NCBI GenBank assembly: GCA_038087875.1
Contig: CM075996.1
Coordinates: 1,924,001-1,988,000 of the forward strand
Direction of reading: 5' to 3'
DNA: 64,000 nucleotides
Origin: Malacoraja senta
Taxonomy: Eukaryota
Both the position numbers and the translations under genes were made by a program. Of this stretch, positions 27,681 to 64,000 are shown in pieces (within the stretch, counting starts at the first letter, position 1; every line of letters starts with the position of its first letter). The notes under the pieces are model-generated. The model was not told the DNA's origin and did not search any database. It saw only the letters and a program-made list of their open reading frames with translations.

Positions 27681-30600
27681 TTCAAGTGAGTTTATTGTCA
27701 TGTGTCCCTGATAGGACAATGAAATTCTTGCTTTGCTTCAGCACAACAGAACATAGTAGGCATTGACTACAAGGCATTCTATAAATATATACACACATGA
27801 ATCAATATACTGATAAAGTGCAAATAACAGTATTGGCTAATAAAGTTCAGTGTTATGTCCGAGCCAGGTTTAATAGCCTGATGGTTGTGGGGAAGTAGCT
27901 ATTCCTGAACCTGGTCGTTGCAGTCTTCAGGCTCCTGTACCTTCTACCTGAAGGTAGTAGGGAGATGAGTGTGTGGCCAGGATGGTGTGGGTCCTTGATG
28001 ATACTGCCAGCCTTTTTGAGGCAGCGACTGCGATAGATCCCCTCGATGGAAGGGAGGTCAGAGCCGATGATGGACTGGGCAGTGTTTACTACTTTTTGTA
28101 GTCTTTTCCTCTCCAGGGCGCTCAAGTTGCCGAACCAAGCCACGATGCAACCGGTCAGCATGCTCTCTACTGTGCACCTGTAGAAGTTAGAGAGAGTCCT
28201 CCTTGACAAACCGACTCTCCGTAATCTTCTCAGGAAGTAGAGGCGCTGATGTACTTTCTTAATAATGGCATCAGTGTTCTCGGACCAGGAAAGATCTTCA
28301 GAGATGTGCACGCCCAGGAATTTGAAGCTCTTGACCCTTTCAACCATCGACCCGTTGATATAAACGGGACTGTGGCTCCCCATCCTACTCCTTCCAAAGT
28401 CCACAATCAGTTCCTTGGTTTTGCTGGTGTTGAGGGCCAGGTTATTGTGCTGGCACCATATGGACAGTTGCTCGATCTCTCTTCTATACTCTGACTCATC
28501 CCAATCAGTGATATGTCCCACAACAGTGGTGTCGTCAGCGAACTTGATGATGGAGTTCGCACTATGTCCGGCTACGCAGTCATGAGTATAGAGTGAGTAC
28601 AGCAGGGGGCTGAGCACGCAGCCTTGAGGTGCTCCCGTGCTGATTGTTATCGAGTCTGACACATTTCCACCAATACGAACAGACTGTGGTCTGAGAGTGA
28701 GGAAGTCGAGGATCCAATTGCAGAGGGATGCGCAGAGACCCAGTTCTGCGAGTTTGGTAACCAGCTTGGAGAGGATGATTGTATTAAATGCCGAGCTGTA
28801 ATCGATGAATAACAGTCTGACATATGAGTTTTTGTTGTCCAAGTGGTCCAGAGCGGAGTGGAGGGCCAGCGAGATCGCATCCACCGTTGATCTGTTGTGG
28901 CGGTAAGCAAACTGCAGTGGGTCCAGGTTTTTGTCGAGGGAGGAGTTGATCTGCGTCATGATCAACCTCTCAAAGCACTTCATCACCACAGGCGTTTGTG
29001 CCACAGGTCGATAGTCATTGAGGCACGTCACCTTACTCTTCTTGGGCACTGGTATAATTGATGCCCTTTTGAAGCAGGTGGGAACCTCAGACTTCAGAAG
29101 TGAGAGGTTGAAAATGTCCGTAAAAACTCCAGCCAGTTGGTCCGCACAGGTTTTTAGAACACGACCAGGTATACCGTCAGGTCCAGGCGCTTTTCGATGG
29201 TTCACCCCTCTGAAGGATTTCCTGACGTCGGCCTCTGTGACTCAGACTGAAATACCATCACAGCGAATGGGGGCTCGGGAAGGCACATCGGTGTTCTCCC
29301 TATCAAAGCGTGCGTAGAACGCATTGAGCTCATCAGGGAGTGATGTTTCGCCGACATTCGAGCTGCCTCCTGATTTCGACTTGTAAGAGGTGATTGCATT
29401 CAGGCCCTGCCACAGCCGCCGAACATCTGTCTCTTCCTCCAGTTTGGAGCAGAAGTCCCTTTTGGCCTTTTTGATGGCCTTACCAAGGTCGTATCTGGAC
29501 TTCTTGTAGGCCACTGTATCATCAGACATGAATGCCCGGTGTCTGGACTTCAGAAAAGTGCGGATCTCAAAGTTCATCCAAGGTTTCTGATTGGGAAACG
29601 CTCGGAAGGTTTTGGTGGGGATGCAGTCCTCCACACACTTCTTAATGAAGTCTGTAACGACTGTGGCGTATTCGTTCAGGTCCGTTGCCGAGTCCTTGAA
29701 CATTGCCCAGTCTACAGACTCCAAACAGTCCTGGAGTTGTTCCTCTGCCCCCCTCGACCAGCTCTGTACTGTCCTCACCTCTGGGGGTGCGCTCTTTAAT
29801 TGCTGCCTGTAGGCAGGAAGAAGCAGCACCGCGGTATGGTCGGATTTACCGAAGTGAGGGCGAGGGATAGAGCGATAGGCATTCTTGATGGTGGTGTAGC
29901 AGTGGTCGAGGATGTTTGGTCCTCTGGTGCAGCAGGAGACATGTTGGTGGAAGTTAGGGAGTGATTTCTTTAGGTTTGCCTTATTGAAGTCCCCGGCTAT
30001 AATGGTGAACGCCTCGGGGTAAGACGTCTGGTGTTTATTGACCAAGGCGTGCAGCTCCTCCAGTGCCAGACGGACATCTGCCTGGGGTGGGATGTAGACC
30101 ACGGTCATGATGATGGAGGTGAATTCCCTTGGGAGGTAGAAGGGACGGCACTTCACCGCCAGATGTTCGAGGTGTGGAGAGCAGGAGTTGGACAGGACTG
30201 CCACGTTTGAGCACCACGCAGAGTTGGCCATGAGGCAGACGCCCCCTCCTCTCCCTTTCCCAGATGCCAGTGTACGGTCCATACGGTGGATGGAGAAACC
30301 TTCAGGCTGGACCGCTGAGTCTGGAGAGCTGGGGGTGAGCCATGTCTCTGTGAAACAGAACACAGAGCATTCCCTCAGCTCCCTTTGATAAAGCAGCCTT
30401 GCCCTTAAGTCCTCCACTTTATTTTCAAGGGACTGTACGTTGGCCAGTAGGATAGTAGGGAGAGGGGGCCGAAGTCCCCTGCGCTTCAGTCTGACCTGAA
30501 GTCCTGCCCGTCGGCCACGTTTCCGGACACAATGGAGGCTTCCCCTTTGTTTCCAGGTGCTGAGTCTACTGTGCCTGCAGTTTCTGCGGACCTGCGCTGG

Positions 30601-31002
30601 AACGGGGATTCCTTCACAGACGGCAGCTCCAGCTCCATAACGAACGGGGGTATCTTCAAAGTCGGCAGCTCCAGCTTCATTGTTCCTGGGAGATCCGGCC
30701 CGTCGGCTCTGGAGGTCATCCCGGGGTTTCCAGGTACAGTACCTGGGATCCTCAGTCGGGTCGGGAGTTCCACAGCAGCGTGGGAAAATTTAAAGTCCGG
30801 GGCTCCCGCAGCTGCGGGAGATCGCGAAATTGCCAGTGCTTTCAGCTGCCCAAGCAGCTTGTCTGAAACGGCACCGATTACTGCCATTTCCCTGATGCAG
30901 GTAAGTTGATAGAAGTTGTAGGTGAACCTTTTCTGTTCTGGTGCTCCACAAAAGTCGCTGCAGGCAGGCGCCATCTTGGGAGGAGTATATTGTATATTGT
31001 GC
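27681..31002 (-). mobile_element. Near-full-length Rex1/Babar-like LINE (APE + RT)
   Basis: APE motifs (FTETWL, IAGDFN, KSDH) and RT motifs ([20 protein letters not shown]). 3' AATAAA and CTTGAA tail. Splits a CR1 fragment, with probable AAAG TSD (27677-80, 31003-06). Confidence 0.93.
27853..30974 (-). pseudogene. LINE endonuclease/reverse transcriptase ORF with about two frameshifts
   Basis: ATG at 30974 (MAPACSDF...RFTYN). Frame changes occur between ~30550-30850 and near 29240. Long open segments: 29242-30417 and 27853-29205. Confidence 0.85.
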
Positions 31003-32414
31003 AAAGACATTTGAACAGCTACATGAATAGGAAAGGTTGAGAGGAGTGTGGGCCAAGCATGATCAAATGGGTCAAGCATAGATGGGGCATATTGGTCAGC
31101 ATGGATGAGTTGGGCCGATCGTCCTGTTTCCATGCTGTATGACTTCCTCAGAGCTGGGGGAGATTTGGTGGGCCAAACAGTCTCTCTCTGAACTTTTCCA
31201 TTGTATGACTTCATACCAATAGACATGATGATAAGACGTATGGCAGAATCATTCAGAAGCCTGATACAGAGGGGAAGAAGTTGTTCCCGAGTCTGGTGGT
31301 GCGCACTGTCAAACTTCTGTATAATCTGCCTGATGGGAGCGGGGAGCAGAAGGAATGACCGGGGTAGGACACCTGTCATTTAGAGTTGTTTCACAGTGCT
31401 AGAGACCCGGGTTCAATCTTGACCTGGGTTGCTGTCTGGTGCAGAGTTTGTATGTTCTCCCTGTGACCGCATGGGTTTCCTCCTGGTGCCCCAGTTTCCT
31501 CCCACATCCCTAAGACGTGCAGATTTGCAGATTAATTGGCCTCTGTAAATTGCCCTGATTGTGTAGGGAGTGGATGAGAAAGTGGGATAACATAGAACTA
31601 GTGTGACTGGGTAATCGATGGTCTGCGTGGATTTAGTGGGACTTCATGCTGTATCTTTTTTTTAAACTTGCGACTAGGGAATGAAGGTTTTTACTTTGAA
31701 ATGGTGGTGTATCAGGGAACAAGGGAGATGGTAAAACAAGCAGATAATGAGGCTATTAGCTGCTTTAAATAGGGACAGGTCAGAATCACGAGGTGGGAGT
31801 ATGTGATCTCATGCCTGAAGAAGGATTTGACAAGTCTGGATGTTGAAAAAAAATAATTCTCTTGTAAAACAAAAAAACAAGGGAAACAAATTGCCTTCCA
31901 TTTCCTTGTCGCCAAGAGATTTTACCCAGAAGGCAGATTTGGAAATAATTGTCGCTCCCATTGTTTCAGAAATGGTGAAAAGAAACAGGTAGTTTATTGG
32001 AGATTACTCTCATTCGAGACAGAGTGCTCAGGATTGATAATGTCAAGCAGTTATTCAGCCATCCATGGGAAATGAGACGCCCAATGTTTCATCAGGGAAA
32101 GAAACAGCTATTGTTCCTGGAGAAATTAATTGTGTTGTTCACTGAAGCTGGATGTAATTCCAGCACAAGATGCCCAGGCCATTTCCTCAGGGAAGGTGAT
32201 GATGTGACATGTCCTTGCACAGCTTCACTGTGTGTGGTGGTGCTCTCACGCAGCAAGGTTATAGAAAAAAGGCACAAAGTGCTGGAGTAACTCAGTGGAT
32301 CAGGCAACATCTCTGGAGAATATGGATGGGTGATGTTTCGGGTCTGGACTCTTCTTCAGACCGATGGAAGGTCTTTGGTCTTTAGCTGAGTCTCTCAGGA
32401 GGCCCATAGGCATC

Positions 32415-52685: not shown

Positions 52686-54115
52686 ACCCGTTCCTTCTCT
52701 CCAGACACGCTGCCTGTCCCGCTGAGTTAACTCCAGAATTTTGTGTCTATCTTCGGAGTAAACCAGCATCTGCAGTTCCTTCCTACACATTTGGTTTGGG
52801 AACTGCTCCATCCAAGACCACAAGAAAGTACAGAATTGTACACGCAGCCCAGACCATCGCACAAACAATCCTCCCTTCCTTTTGACTCCATTTATACATC
52901 ACACTGCCTCGGCAAGGCCAGCAGCATAATCAAGGACCAGTCTCACTCACCCTGACCCATCTCCCATCTTCTCCCCTCCCCCATCAGGCAAAGGTGTAAA
53001 AACGCACACCTCCAGATTCAGGGACAGTTTCTTCCAGCTGTTATCAGGCGACTGAACCGTCCTACCACAACCAGAGAGCTGTGCTGAACTACTATCTACC
53101 TCATTCAAGACCCTCGGACTATCCTTGTTCAGAGGGCGGTGGAGGCAGGTTCTCTGGATGCTTTCAAGAGATAGCTAGATAGGGCTCTTTAAAATAGCGG
53201 AGTCAGGGGATATGGGGAGAAGGGAGGAACGGGGTACCGATTGGGGATGATCAGCCATGATCACATTGAATGGCGGTGCTGTCTCGAAAGGCCAAATGGC
53301 CTACTCCTGCACCCATTGTCTATTGTCTATTGACTTTGCTGGCTTTACCTTGGACTAAATGTTATCCTGTATCTGTACACTGTAAATGGCTCAATTGTAA
53401 TCATGTATTGTCTTTCTGCTGACTGGATAGCACCCAACAGAAGCTTTTCACTGTACCTCGGTCCACGTGACAATAAACTGAATTCAAACTCAATTATCGA
53501 AAGATCCTTGCGACTTTCTTCTCCCAGTGGCTTCTACAATAAGTTCAAAGTGATTGTTGACAGCCAGCAACCACAACCACAACCACAACATTGGACTAAT
53601 CTGACAACTAATTAGTGTTAAAGAATTTTCACAAAGTGCAACCCAAGATGTAATAACCACATTTTTTTAATTAACTTTTAAAATACTTTACAGAGTATAA
53701 CTAAAAATTGGAGCAGACACATGATTAAAGCAGAAGCAAAAAAATATACTTATTTAAAAAAATAAAATCTATGCTGTTTTGAAATATTTATGAAAGAGAA
53801 TTACAGTCCTTCTAAATAAGGGTCTCGACCCGAAACGTCACCCATTCCTTCTCTCCAGAGATGCTGCCTGTGCTGCTGAGTTCCTCCAGCATTTTGTTTT
53901 TATCTTCGGTTTAAACCAGCATCTGCAGTTCCTTCCTACATGTAGAGTCCAATAGCTTTGTTTTGGAGAGATATTGCTAAACAGTAAATTGGGTTTTAAA
54001 ATATAATGTAGATCTTGTGCATGTACATAGAACAGTACAGCACAGGAACAGGCCCTTCTGCCCACAATGTCTGTGCTGAACATGATGCCGTGTTAGACTA
54101 ATCGCAGCCTGCATG

Positions 54116-54168
54116 GGGGTGAAGATTGCAACCTTCACGTGGTCCGCCCTGTTTCGACTAATGCAAAC
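54116..54168 (+). ncRNA. Minimal HDV-like ribozyme fold
   Basis: P1 GGGGTGA/CCGCCCT with a G-U pair at +1; P2 GATTGCA/TGCAAAC; P3 ACC/GGT; L3 TTCACGT; P1.1 G54151; vestigial P4; J4/2 CTAA with candidate catalytic C54158. Confidence 0.75.
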
Positions 54169-54251
54169 AACTCGACGTGCACAAACGGAAGATCAAATAG
54201 AACAAGTTGTCCAACAACTTTAGGCTGTGCACGCCACATGAAAGAAGAAGA
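54116..54251 (+). mobile_element. 136-bp non-autonomous retroposon (Ingi/Vingi-like) with 5' ribozyme
   Basis: 10-bp TSD AGCCTGCATG (54106-15, 54252-61), (GAA)n tail, no tRNA head. Confidence 0.8.
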
Positions 54252-54884
54252 AGCCTGCATGTGATCCATATCCATTCCATGTATATCCATACATATAGAA
54301 ACATAGACAATAGGTGCAGGAGTAGGCCATTCAGCCTTTCGAGCCAGCACCGCCATTCAATATGATCATGGCTGATCATCTAAAATCAGTACCCCATTCC
54401 TGTTTTCTCTCCATATCCCTTGATTCCATTAGCCCTAAGAGCTAGATCTAACTCTCTTGAAAACATCCAGTGAATTGGCCTCCACTGCCTTTTGTGGCGG
54501 AGAATTCCACAGATTCACAACTCTCTGGGTGAAAAAGTTGTTCCTCATCTCAGTCCTAAATGGCCTACCGCTTATTCTTAAACTGTGTGACCCCTGGTTC
54601 TGGACTCCCCCAACATGGGGGACATTTATCCTGCATCTAGCCTGTCCAATCTTTAAGAATTTTATATGTTTCTATAAGATCTCCTCTCATCCTTCTAAAT
54701 TCCAGTGAATACAAGCCAGTCGACCCATTCTTGCCCAGTCGACCCCTACACACACCCATATGGACTGTGCTAAAGTGTTAGTGTACGGGGTAATCGCTGG
54801 TCGGCATGGACTTAGTGGGCCGAAGGGCCTGTTTCCGCGTAGCATCTCTAAGTCTACACACAAACGCTGATGGGTGCTTGATGT

Positions 54885-59768: not shown

Positions 59769-62700
59769 TCACCATAACGGACAGGCGGCCTGACCACCCG
59801 CCCGGACCGGGGTACGCAGCTCGCCATCTCCCCCCTCTGGAGGAATTTGAGTAGGAGCAGACGCGGGTGAGAGAACCGGGGAACCGGGAGGAGAAAGAGA
59901 AAACGGAGACGGAGCAGGGGAAGCAGGAGCAGTAGCGGGAAGACGGGCAGGCGAGGGAGGACTGGCTGGTGGAGAGCAGGGCTGATATAGCTGAGAAGGC
60001 AGGGACCGAGGCATACATGGAGGGGCAGGCAACGTGGCAGACAGTGGGGGGGGGGGAAAGGGGTCTGCAGGCGGCGGCGGGGGCTCGTTAACAAGCCGCA
60101 GATGTTGGCGGGACCGGCGGTAAATAGTACCGTCATGGTCGACTAGATAGGACCGCGGCGAACCAGCAGTACCGACGACGATGGCAAGCCTGGGGTGACC
60201 GGAGCGGGACTGCATCCGGATGACTTGACCAGGGAACAGAGGCGGGAGGGGACGGCAGGACTTGTCGTGGGAGCGCTTTTGGATTTCTTGCTTGAGGGCA
60301 ATGCGCTCCCAGACAGCAGCGGGCTGGAGAACAGAGGGAACGAGGGACCACTGGGTCACCGGGATCGGAGGTCTCGTAGTGCGAGACATCAGCCGTTGTG
60401 CTGGGGAGCCCAAGGCAGTGTCGCGGCAAATGTTTCGTAGGTTGAGGAGGGCCAGGTAAAAGTCAGAATGGGACAGTCTACAATGTTCCAGCAAGTCCTT
60501 AGCACTGCGGACAGCGCGCTCTGCCAAGCCGTTGCTTTGAGGGTACTCTGGGCTGCTGGTATAGTGTCGGAAGTTCCAGCTGGCAGCGAAACTCCAAAAT
60601 TCGGCACTCGAGAACTGGCTGCCGTTGTCCGATTGAAGACTTGCCGGGGTGCCAAAGGTTCCGAAGTGGCGGCGCAGCCTCCCGATAACGGCCGAAGAGG
60701 TGAGGGAGTGCAGCTGGTTAACCTCGAACCAGCTGGAGTACGAGTCCACAAGAACCAGGAAGTGCTTGCCACGCCACTCAAAAATGTCAGCGGCGACGGT
60801 CATCCAGGGCAGCTCGGGGGCAGGCTGTTGCAGAAGCGGCTGCCGTTGCTGATGGGGAGTGAGGCTATTGCAGACAGAGCAAGCGGAGACCCTCTCCCGG
60901 ATGTCTTGGGCCATGCTGGGCCAGTAGAACAAACTCTGGGCCTGAGACAGGGTGGCCTCGGCCCCAGAATGACCACGATGGGCGGTCTGAAAAGTATTGG
61001 TCACGCAGGGCAGCAGGCACAACCACCTTGTGTCCCTTCACGACAACGCCGTCATGCAGCACGAGCTCATCACGGACCAGGAAGTAGGGCACGACTCCAG
61101 CAGGCAAGGATGAACGACGGTCTGGCCAGCCCTGCCTGATGACGTCGGCAAGCTGCTGCAGGGCAGGATCCATGGCAGTGTTGCTGACCAGGGACTGCAT
61201 CTGCTGGGAAGGCACAATGTTGACGTTGAGCACCATCAGGTCAGCCGATTCATATGGATGGCGATCGGTGGACGTTAGCGCTGCGCGGGACAGCGTGTCG
61301 GCCACAAACATGTCCTTGCCCTTGCGATATACAATTTTGAACGTAAAACGCTGGAGCTGCAGCATCATGCGCTGCAAACGGGACGAGGCAACGTGGATCG
61401 GCTTTGTTGAGGATAGAGACCAGCGGCTGATGGTCGGTCTCGATCGTGAAGCTGTTAGTCCTTGAATATAGTCCTTGAACTTGGAGCAGGCAAACACCAC
61501 AGCAAGCAGCTCCTTCTCTATCTGAGCATAGCGCTGCTCGGCAGGGGTCATGGTGCGGGACGCGTAGGAAACAGGCAGCTGCAGGCCATCGTGGAGCTGC
61601 AGGCAAGCAGCACCAAGACCGAACTTGGAGGCGTCGCAGGTAAGAACAATGGGACGCTGTAGATTGAAGAATTGGAGAGTGGGGGTACTGGCCAGCCTGG
61701 ACTTCAGAACGTCAAAAGCTTTCTGGTGATGCGGGAGCCAGGCCCAGGCAGTGTCCTTCTTGATCAACTCCCTCAGGGGCGCGCTCAGCTCGCTGAGGTC
61801 GGGGATGAACTTCCCCAGGTAATTAACCATGCCCAGGAAACGCTGCAGGCTGGGCACGTCGGTGGGCGAAGACATCCCGGAGACCGCAGCCGTCTTCTGC
61901 TGGTCGGGCTTCAGCCCCGATGCGGTAAAGACGTGGCCCACATAGGTGACGTCCGGGATGCGGAAACAGCACTTCTTTGGGTTTAGTTTGAGGTTGATCT
62001 CACGGGCCCGGTCCAGGACTTGACGGAGGTGGAGATCGTGCTCAGCAACGTCCTTACCGTAGACCAGGATGTCGTCAACGATGATAGCACACGGCAGACC
62101 GGCGAACAGCTGCTCCATCGTCCGCTGGAAGACCTCGCTGGCAGAGTTGATCCCGAATGGCATGCGGAGGAATCGGAACCTGCCGAAGGGCGTGCTGAAG
62201 GTAGTCAGGTAGGAGGACCGCTCGTCCAGCGGTATCTGCCAGAAGGAGCTCTTGGCATCGAGAACCGAGAAGACAGTGGCCGGGCCAACCTGTGCAGCGA
62301 CGTCCTCCACTGTTCGCATGGGGTAATGAGACGTCTGATGGCAAGGTTCAGTTCTTTGGGGTTGATGCAAATGCGAATTTCACTTTTGTCCTTTTTCGCA
62401 GCAACAACCATGGTGTAGACCCACCGGGTGGGTTCGCTCACCTCCTTCAGGATGCCCATGGTAACCATGTTGAGCAGCGTTAACTCCACCTTGTCCTTCA
62501 TGGCGAAGGAGACGCGGTGTGGTGGACGAATCATAGGTTCAACACCGGGGTCGACAACGATCTTGTAGCAGCACGGCAGCTTGCCCAGCTTGTCATCAAA
62601 ATGATCAGCGTATTCACGCAGGGGGTCCATAAGGGTCCGCACCTCGTGGATAACACGGTGGAAAGAGACCAAGCCGAGGTCCTGGCACGCCCGGGCACCC

Positions 62701-63875
62701 AACAGGGTGATGTTGTTAGTATCCAGTAGATAAAAAATGAGGGGCCGAGAGGCATGCAGTACCTTGCAGTGCAGGGTAGCCCTCCCCACCGGAACGAGCA
62801 CGCTTCCCCCGTAGGCAGGCAACAGGGAGTGATCAGGAGTAACTTTCTCATCAGTCCTTATCTTCTTGAAGAGGCTTATTGACATTACATTGGTCACGGC
62901 CCCCGTGTCGAGTTTGGCGGTGAAGGTCGAGCCGTTGACAGTAACGCGAACCGAAGGGTCCGTTATCAGTGCAGGTGCAGCCAACACCGAAAATATGCTG
63001 GTCTCCCCCTGGGAGGAACTTGTATCAGACAAAGGGAGTTCATCAGGCTGGAACTGTGAACCAAGCGCGCTATCAGCTCGAGCAAGGTTGTTTAACATTC
63101 GGCGTGGAGCAGGAACTGGCTTCCCACGAGAGCGACAGGCGGCAGAGAAATGGTTCAATTTCCTGCAAAAGTTGCACGTTTTTTTCAGTGCAGGGCACAC
63201 ATTAGACTGATGGGAGGTAAAGTTGCAGTTGGGGCACCGCTGTGGGCTGCTACCCCCGGGTGCAGGGGACCCCCGTTGCCGTTGCGGGCCAGCGTTCCGC
63301 CGGCGGCCAGCAACACTGGTAAAGTTAATGTCATGATCAGCAGACGACACCGCCGAGGCGACAGCCTCAGCCATGCGGGAGGCGTGCAGAGTCTCGGCTA
63401 AAGACAGGTCGTGCTTCCGTAGAAGTTCAGCCCTTAGTTTTTCATCTTGAAGACCATACACTAAAATGTCCCGGGTCAGTTGATCGGGGGTCAGTGTGTC
63501 CAGGCTGCAACGCCTGGCCAGGTGACGCAACGCGGCGATATAGTTATCGATTGACTCTCCAGAGATCTGACGCCGGGTGAACATTTTAAAACGCTCTAGA
63601 ATGCAGTTAGTGGGGATGTCGCACATTGCGGTAAACTTAGCCATAAGATATACCGGGTCCTGAGCATCTTCACCTGCACCATAGACAAACGACTCAGCCC
63701 GTTCCAGGGCATCGGGACCAGCCAGGTTGAGAAGCAGAGAAGCCCGTGTAGCAGGGGTGGCAGCAGGATGGGCGATCGTGACGTAGTGTTGGAAGTCACG
63801 TCTAAAGACACCCCACCGATGGGCAATGTCCGAGTCGAAGACAAGCATGTCGGGTTTGCGGCAAGAAGTAGCCAT
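59769..63875 (-). pseudogene. Gypsy gag-pol polyprotein, frameshifted
   Basis: Two CCHC knuckles (CPNC..H..C, CNFC..H..C), protease LDTGA, RT IVDDIL, RNase H TCDAS/YAQIEKE, integrase HRGH..CSVC and SDNG..SNGLAER. Frame breaks near 62330, 61457, 61405 and 60990. Confidence 0.9.
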
Positions 63876-64000
63876 GGCACGGGAGATAAAAAAACACAAT
63901 GAGGAAACAGGTCAAAAGTAAAGAAAACCCGATAAACTGGAGGCGCAAAGGTACGATGCTGACACCATGTAAAGAGGTGTCATAACACACTGTGTCTTTA

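What the first reader, a model, noticed from the sequence alone, without database searches (positions are those of the whole stretch)
54106..54261. 136-bp 'ribozyme SINE': HDV-like ribozyme head, hairpin body, (GAA)n tail
Seen: a 10-bp TSD (AGCCTGCATG) brackets the element. Its first base, G54116, is exactly the predicted +1 cleavage nucleotide of a nested double pseudoknot. The fold has P1 with a G-U wobble, P2, P3 ACC/GGT, L3 TTCACGT, single-pair P1.1, almost no P4 and J4/2 CTAA. The rest is a long stem (CGTGCACA...TGTGCACG enclosing AAGTTGT/ACAACTT). There are no Pol III boxes. Known: Ingi/L1Tc, R2 and some RTE non-LTR elements use 5' HDV-like ribozymes. Inference: a promoterless parasite that cuts itself out of host transcripts and borrows an Ingi/Vingi RT. 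This copy has a P1 mismatch (A54122-C) and a P2 mismatch, so it may be decayed.
Basis: partly seen in the sequence, partly recalled or inferred. Interest (0 to 1): 0.82.

Follow-up and report, generated by a model that had tools for sequence, protein, structure and literature searches.

The report
Ribozyme-headed mini-LINE with clasped ends
This is a 136-base jumping element with thousands of copies, made of the two ends of a longer Vingi-like retrotransposon; it likely trims its own front end with a predicted self-cutting RNA, and its two ends are predicted to pair in a clasp that many related retrotransposons share.

Summary
Real, and of a known kind, but not a SINE. Window 54116-54251 belongs to a dispersed family: 2,570 exact head matches. 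In a tail-anchored sample, 27 of 30 copies start at the predicted cleavage G. The parent lies in the same genome: a single-ORF, RNase-H-less, Vingi-like LINE sharing the first ~72 and last ~45 nt. So this is a bipartite, internally deleted LINE, like NARTc, RIME and R2 SIDEs. The HDV-like fold recurs with changed paired letters in other families; cleavage is untested, and this copy carries two lesions. Two additions. First, the 'body hairpin' joins the parent's 5' UTR to its 3' UTR, about 3 kb apart. A helix at this position is strong in 6 of 10 families and weak in 1 (cognate -15.6 vs -8.9 kcal/mol, 3 of 500,000 permutations; held-out four alone rank 2 of 24). Second, 5 of 30 truncated parent copies carry an inverted piece of the extreme 5' end. 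Eight paper searches showed neither, but two key papers were not held. The scan noted ribozyme-headed fungal retroposons before.

The parts
54106..54115 (+). Left target-site duplication (9 or 10 bp; the last G could belong to either side)
   Evidence: Sequence
54116..54168 (+). Predicted HDV-like ribozyme; +1 is G54116, predicted catalytic C54158; this copy has a one-base deletion in P1 5' and T>A at 54167 in P2 3'
   Evidence: the same fold heads the parent LINE and related families; activity untested
54116..54186 (+). Part taken from the 5' end of the parent LINE (family A)
   Evidence: Natural copy L012 nt 1-72 is 96% identical to LINE copy L139 and 93% to L138
54176..54183 (+). 5' strand of the end-to-end helix (parent 5' UTR, 7 nt after P2)
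54187..54206 (+). Junction filler, about 20 nt, including a short local duplication of 5' UTR letters
   Evidence: origin inferred
54204..54220 (+). Inner 7-bp hairpin, formed across the junction
54207..54251 (+). Part taken from the 3' end of the parent LINE: last ORF codons and stop, 3' UTR, end motif, GAA tail
   Evidence: L012 nt 93-137 match LINE 3' ends at about 87-91%, nt 100-137 up to 95%
54226..54233 (+). 3' strand of the end-to-end helix (parent 3' UTR, just before the end motif)
54252..54261 (+). Right target-site duplication
   Evidence: Sequence

Best explanation
The element is a non-autonomous, internally deleted derivative of a Vingi-like LINE in the same genome, keeping that LINE's first ~72 and last ~45 bases, and it likely spreads by borrowing a Vingi-type reverse transcriptase after a predicted HDV-like ribozyme trims its 5' end. 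Shown: shared ends with the LINE, fixed 5' start, short target duplications, thousands of copies, several independent deletion derivatives. Inferred (about 0.8): read-through transcripts are cut just before the +1 G by the ribozyme. Inferred (about 0.6): an 8-10-bp helix between the strand just after the ribozyme and the strand just before the end motif clasps the LINE RNA into a loop. This would hold the 5' end at the insertion site during reverse transcription, so the enzyme can jump to it or prime on it. That would explain why such LINEs shed two-ended mini-elements and why these keep both ends. This copy is probably a weakened or dead ribozyme.
For: Parent: L138 is a 2.8-kb copy with the same head, broken endonuclease-RT-zinc-knuckle frames, the same tail and an 11-bp duplication. 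Homologues are ~1,000-aa single ORFs with APE and RT and no RNase H hit. 5' ends: 27 of 30 tail-anchored copies reach +1. 23 of those 27 have a 6-14-bp duplication, 17 abutting +1 directly and 5 with one extra base. Fold: a descriptor found it at the 5' end of 5 of 75 metagenome loci (4 families), plus one doubtful antisense hit, and on 0 of 150 shuffled strands. It also heads five further families in the own genome, with changed paired letters in P1, P2 and P3 and a C-G to U-A swap at P1.1 in family C (read by eye). The 5' end of a named Vingi, Vingi-2_Gav, printed in the supplement of PMC5786205, fits the same fold by eye. Helix: 10 families, cognate mean -15.6 vs non-cognate -8.9 kcal/mol, 3 of 500,000 permutations. 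In 6 of 10 the cognate 5' window is in the top 2.4% of all windows of the same element. With 9 families and three window sizes: 8, 6 and 24 of 362,880. 5' capture: 5 of 30 LINE 3' ends, taken by an ORF motif, carry an inverted piece from the first 500 nt joined to a 3' piece starting at 2,300-2,900; 0 of 30 show an inversion from elsewhere. Direct joins of the two ends also occur: L139, L235, L240 and the L099/L102/L118 type.
Against: No cleavage or expression data: only assembled contigs were served, and they cannot show RNA starts. A fixed 5' end fits an internal promoter equally well. Rfam has no hit. P4 is a single pair, shorter than in all related families seen. The helix is absent in 3 of 10 families (B, L152, L161/L200) and weak in C (161 of 969 windows as good). 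Six of the ten families were seen by eye before the test, and the four found later rank only 2 of 24 on their own. In families A and C the core is a palindromic hexamer. Ordinary inversions next to the truncation point also occur (L131, L132, L140, L233). For 4 of the 30 LINE copies the 5' junction lay outside the stretch fetched, and a flanking duplication is evident for only 2-3 of the 5 inverted copies. No intact family-A ORF was among the 55 matches listed by a stricter-than-usual search, so the driver of the young subfamily is not identified.
Confidence: 0.82

Rival explanations
1. The head works mainly as an internal Pol II promoter that starts transcription at +1, as Pr77 does in L1Tc; the ribozyme fold is secondary or a back-up.
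For: Pr77 is described as both promoter and ribozyme (PMC4035085 passages). A fixed 5' end fits either. Some well-folded trypanosome signatures did not cleave in vitro.
Against: The paired letters change together across families while the predicted catalytic C stays, which points to selection on RNA structure. Only 1 of the 5 single extra bases at 5' junctions is a G, so there is no sign of a copied cap (expectation recalled, small sample).
Confidence: 0.2
2. The end-to-end helix is incidental or serves only local folding of the mini-element; the 5'-end inversions come from the protein holding the 5' RNA, as proposed for R2 (recalled), not from base pairing.
For: Absent in one well-supported subclade (99/97). 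Held-out test alone ranks 2 of 24. Palindromic cores in A and C.
Against: Unrelated letters pair at the same position in three separate subclades. The older mini-element subfamily extends the helix from 8 to 10 pairs (by eye). SINE2-1_AMi keeps a 5-bp hairpin at this position (by eye).
Confidence: 0.35
3. It is a true Pol III SINE whose head only looks like a ribozyme.
For: The abundant family has no run of four T, and its junction falls just before such a run in the LINE 5' UTR, which the rarer derivatives keep. The P4 loop resembles a B-box core (consensus recalled, not scanned).
Against: No tRNA-like gene in 5 of 5 loci. The head is 93-96% identical to the 5' end of a protein-coding LINE.
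Confidence: 0.05
4. On the driver only: the young subfamily outlived its parent (family A) and is now moved by another Vingi-like family, most likely D.
For: Young copies differ by 1.6% from a natural copy, while family-A LINE copies are about 86-93% alike. The young end motif was found on 0 family-A ends exactly, and the 6 one-mismatch hits all keep the old letter; 0 of the 28 family-A ends typed among 51 loci have it. Family D ends in a near-identical motif, is 95-98% alike and has stop-free ~1,000-aa frames.
Against: Young family-A masters could be missing from the assembly or from the capped searches. The helix letters of D and of the mini-element differ.
Confidence: 0.45

Closest known systems
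NARTc / RIME / NARTco (short internally deleted L1Tc/ingi elements of trypanosomes; PMC4035085 passages; PMC3185411 passages)
   Same: Two-ended deletion derivative of an Ingi-group LINE. HDV-like ribozyme from the first base, 3-bp P3, single-pair P1.1. NARTco's ribozyme is reported active.
   Different: Animal genome; the parent has no RNase H; almost no P4; GAA tail; 137 bp. No 5'/3' helix appears in the passages read.
R2 SIDEs and R2/R1 hybrid SIDEs of Drosophila (PMC3414825, abstract)
   Same: 5' ribozyme plus LINE 3' end, moved in trans; template jumps reported.
   Different: R2 is site-specific and uses another endonuclease type; those SIDEs are called rare, while this family is dispersed in thousands of copies.
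Non-autonomous Vingi-1_EE derivatives of hedgehogs, and bipartite non-autonomous LINEs in general (PMC5786205 passages and section 23)
   Same: Same class and probably same clade: internal deletion keeping the 5' and 3' ends.
   Different: [quoted passage not shown] The primary Vingi paper (PMC3002237) was not held, so what it says about the ends is unchecked.
SINE2-1_AMi and Vingi-2_Gav (supplement of PMC5786205)
   Same: The Vingi-2_Gav 5' end fits the same fold and closely resembles the heads of family D and L185. The SINE keeps a hairpin at the helix position, before a D-like end motif.
   Different: SINE2-1_AMi has a tRNA head and altered L3 letters; the element here has no tRNA head.

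Membership tests
Bipartite non-autonomous LINE (SIDE) | 5' part from the extreme 5' end of an autonomous LINE | tested here: met
   nt 1-72 match L138/L139 at 93-96%
Bipartite non-autonomous LINE (SIDE) | 3' part from the 3' end of the same LINE, tail included | tested here: met
   Last ~45 nt match family-A ends
Bipartite non-autonomous LINE (SIDE) | Own amplification with target duplications | tested here: met
   2,570 exact head matches; duplications in 23 of 27 full-length copies
HDV-like ribozyme | Nested double pseudoknot P1, P1.1, P2, P3, P4 | tested here: met
   All pairs formable in intact copies: 14 of 30 by eye. P4 is one pair. No formal cross-family alignment was made, so covariation is read by eye
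HDV-like ribozyme | Element starts at the +1 base of P1 | tested here: met
   27 of 30
HDV-like ribozyme | Match to a curated model | tested here: not met
   No Rfam ribozyme hit at E<=10
HDV-like ribozyme | Mg2+-dependent self-cleavage that needs the J4/2 C | not testable with these tools
   Needs a bench assay; the runs served were contigs only
Vingi clade (parent LINE) | Compact single ORF with APE and RT, no RNase H (PMC13708176 passage) | tested here: met
   the ORF runs to within ~25 nt of the tail
Vingi clade (parent LINE) | Groups with named Vingi proteins in an RT tree | tested here: inconclusive
   No named protein was on hand. The RNase-H-less group is one clade, 100/100, against three outgroup rows, one with a weak RNase H hit. 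The link to a named Vingi is by head resemblance only
SINE (small-RNA-derived head, Pol III) | Head from tRNA, 7SL, 5S or snRNA | tested here: not met
   Head is LINE-derived; no tRNA; no such Rfam hit
SINE (small-RNA-derived head, Pol III) | Transcribed by Pol III | not testable with these tools
   No data

The most novel reading that the evidence does not exclude
Most Vingi-type LINE RNAs are closed loops: a self-cleaving ribozyme sets the 5' end, and a short helix right behind it clasps the strand just before the 3' end motif. The clasp docks the 5' end at the insertion site, drives 5'-end capture, and is why this clade spawns two-ended mini-elements; this 137-nt element is that minimal ribozyme-plus-clasp unit, and it may have changed host enzyme.
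Probability: 0.5. Interest if true: 0.75.

Novelty: new member of a known kind. Interest (0 to 1): 0.55.

Why it matters
The class is known, so the element alone is a tidy new example: very small, abundant and recently active in an animal genome. The comparison adds more. PMC5786205 states that it is unknown why only a few LINE clades produce internally deleted derivatives; a 5'-3' clasp gives a concrete, testable answer for Vingi. Vingi-1 of Anolis is used as an RNA gene-writing tool whose donors carry both UTRs, and about 25% of its insertions are estimated to be truncated (PMC13708176 passages). A ribozyme-plus-clasp rule would bear on template design. It would also name the 'unknown' 3' part of SINE2-1_AMi as a Vingi end.

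Tried and rejected
Rfam and nested folding z-scores gave no support and cannot see this pseudoknot. A first exclusion pattern for the parent on the young tail gave 15 hits, all mini-element variants or fragments; by design it would have missed family A. Viral contigs: 28 pattern hits, no relative. Prokaryotic genome contigs: 10 loci, none with both ends, not used. RNA: 23 runs, all contigs, 1 on record as RNA. Laying 4 of them showed family sequence in each but no starts, strand or level, and no clean empty site for this locus. My descriptor missed heads that look HDV-like by eye (L152, L161, L166, L196, L204, L215) and called none for L147, L150 or L154. F, L149, L158, L159 and L147 lacked a usable 3' end, and L150, L154 and L156 lacked a called head, so these were left out of the helix test. 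The L161/L200 row pairs two contigs of one family (about 91% alike), and the family-A row pairs two copies. A 20-codon frame inside the element was dropped: it ends on the LINE's own stop and has no counterpart in the LINE 5' end. Host context: 84 of 116 long window frames were scanned against Pfam and only retroelement domains hit, so whether this copy lies in a host transcript is open. A formal cross-family ribozyme alignment with pair counts was not made. Papers not held: PMC3002237 and PMC3308841; patents and Repbase are not searchable here. Searches for prior reports; none listed a paper whose title or abstract start shows a Vingi ribozyme, a 5'/3' helix or this family.

Full report
OBSERVATION. 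The described parts are all present at the stated coordinates. The element spans 54116-54251 between 10-bp duplications. The window lies in a 1.94-Gb genome (G000:C20). A DNA search gave 1,177 candidates and the 40 scored were 98-100% identical. An exact 26-nt head motif occurs 2,570 times against 0 for the control, and the young-type tail motif 784 times. These are floors, because they count exact matches only. Against its family, this copy has lost one base of the P1 5' strand and has T>A at 54167 in P2.

FAMILY ANATOMY. I took the first 30 of the 784 tail matches, all on contig C1. 27 of 30 reach the +1 G; the three truncated ones include a duplicated pair. 23 of the 27 have a 6-14-bp duplication, 17 abutting +1 directly, 5 with one extra base and 1 with three. 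Mean difference from natural copy L012 is 1.6%. Twenty head matches without the young tail differ by 7.5% from L012 and mostly form an older subfamily with another J4/2 second letter and another end motif. By eye, 14 of the 30 young copies keep every predicted pair and the J4/2 C.

PARENT. An exclusion pattern on the older tail gave 78 hits. Of the 30 fetched, 4 had coding sequence upstream. These led to family A, a LINE with copies about 86-93% alike and 147 exact matches to an ORF motif. L138 is a 2.8-kb copy with an internal gap, the same head, broken endonuclease-RT-zinc-knuckle frames, the same tail and an 11-bp duplication. The mini-element shares its nt 1-72 and its last ~45 nt with this LINE, with about 20 nt of filler between. 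Independent two-ended derivatives exist: L139, L235, L240 and the L099/L102/L118 type. Homologues are ~1,000-aa single ORFs with APE and RT domains and no RNase H hit, which is the architecture given for Vingi in PMC13708176 (passages). In a tree of 28 RT segments the RNase-H-less rows form one clade, 100/100. No named Vingi protein was on hand, so 'Vingi-like' rests on architecture and on the head of Vingi-2_Gav.

RIBOZYME. Rfam and nested folding give nothing. The case is comparative. P1 position 5 reads U-A in the LINE, U.G in the mini-element and C-G in L090. A descriptor found the fold at the 5' end of 5 of 75 metagenome loci, plus one doubtful antisense hit, and on 0 of 150 shuffled strands. 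More heads fit by eye. Five further families in the own genome (B-F) start with the fold, with different paired letters; family C swaps the P1.1 pair to U-A. PMC3185411 (passages) describes a 3-bp P3 and a single-pair P1.1 in the active L1Tc ribozyme. PMC4035085 (passages) reports active ribozymes in NARTco and inactive ones in some well-folded SIDERs, so fold does not prove activity. No formal alignment was made and no RNA ends could be seen. I put cleavage by intact copies at about 0.8.

THE STEM IS A 5'-3' CLASP (inferred function). One strand of the outer stem is the LINE's 5' UTR just after P2; the other is its 3' UTR just before the end motif, about 3 kb away in the parent. I noted the idea after seeing A, L201, L185, L166, L152 and the L161 family, and then found B-E. 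With 30-nt windows, ten families give a cognate mean of -15.6 against -8.9 kcal/mol, with 3 of 500,000 permutations as good. Windows of the same element pairing as well as the cognate one: A 6/892, D 12/968, E 23/960, L201 3/1003, L185 13/976, L166 0/995, C 161/969, B 754/960, L152 663/955, L161/L200 784/1394. The four later families alone rank 2 of 24, which is not significant by itself. The three without a helix fall in one subclade (99/97), and those with it in three others. In the supplement of PMC5786205, SINE2-1_AMi has a 5-bp hairpin at this position, before a D-like end motif (by eye).

5'-END CAPTURE. Among the first 30 of 147 family-A ORF-motif matches, 5 carry an inverted piece from the first 500 nt joined to a 3' piece that begins at 2,300-2,900. 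Four of these reach the ribozyme and one stops in the helix strand. None shows an inversion from elsewhere; 4 of the 30 junctions lay outside the stretch, and very short pieces could be missed. In a set chosen for having the 5' end, 13 of 20 are inverted, one of them adjacent to its break (two loci overlap the first set). Ordinary adjacent inversions also occur among longer copies. Classical twin priming (recalled) predicts adjacent pieces, so the 5' end appears to sit near the insertion site. A clasp would do that; protein binding would too.

MECHANISM. Shown: origin, ends, duplications and amplification. Inferred: a read-through or internally started transcript is cut before +1; the RNA folds into ribozyme, clasp and single-stranded end motif; a Vingi-type protein binds, nicks the target and copies from the GAA tail. 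In the full LINE the clasp keeps the 5' end close, so direct jumps give two-ended derivatives and second-strand priming gives 5'-end inversions. The young subfamily may have changed driver: its end motif is not on family-A ends and resembles that of family D, which is young and has stop-free frames. I put this at 0.45.

COMPARISON AND NOVELTY. It works like, and meets the tested features of, bipartite non-autonomous LINEs (NARTc, RIME, R2 SIDEs, Vingi-1_EE derivatives). It fails the SINE test. PMC5786205 (passages and section 23) omits Vingi from the ribozyme-bearing clades and calls the reason for such derivatives unknown. Searches listed no paper on a Vingi ribozyme, a 5'/3' helix or this family. 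But the primary Vingi paper and the 2011 survey of LINE ribozymes were not held, and patents and Repbase could not be searched. Seen as listing or abstract only: PMC3414825 (abstract) and the other rows. The scan's earlier notes describe ribozyme-headed retroposons in fungi, and none for this sequence or genome.

VERDICT. A real feature and a new member of a known kind; interest 0.55. The most novel reading, a clade-wide ribozyme-plus-clasp loop that explains two-ended derivatives, has probability 0.5 and would deserve 0.75.

Noticed in passing
L290 and L291 (G000:C8:934200-938400, C4:35486200-35490400), 5' ends: Family-D LINE copies carry about seven and four tandem copies of the 26-nt ribozyme segment from P1 to P3, probably from slippage between the two P1 strands.
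   Followed up: no
L282-L300: At least five more Vingi-like families (B-F) coexist in this genome, each with its own HDV-like head; B, D and E are 95-99% alike within family, and D and E have stop-free frames of ~1,000 aa.
   Followed up: partly
Supplement of PMC5786205, SINE2-1_AMi: Its 'unknown' 3' part looks like a Vingi end, and its ribozyme loop letters are altered, as expected if cleavage is harmful behind a tRNA head (by eye).
   Followed up: partly
L152, L159, L161, L196, L204, L215, L284: The subclade without the clasp has almost no 3' UTR, and most members share a conserved motif after the ribozyme; it may use another 5' signal.
   Followed up: no
window 59772-63911, - strand: Long frames with protease, RT, RNase H and integrase domains: an LTR retrotransposon, likely Gypsy-type by domain order, running towards the window end.
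   Followed up: no
window 27856-31379, - strand: An unrelated LINE with long endonuclease and RT frames (462 and 515 aa).
   Followed up: no
window 54014-54097 and 54294 onward: The element sits between other high-copy repeats; many family copies are likewise inserted in repeats.
   Followed up: no
coded runs X1-X23: Family sequence occurs in runs of eight coded organisms in 11 studies, so it is shared among related species; 4 runs were laid.
   Followed up: partly
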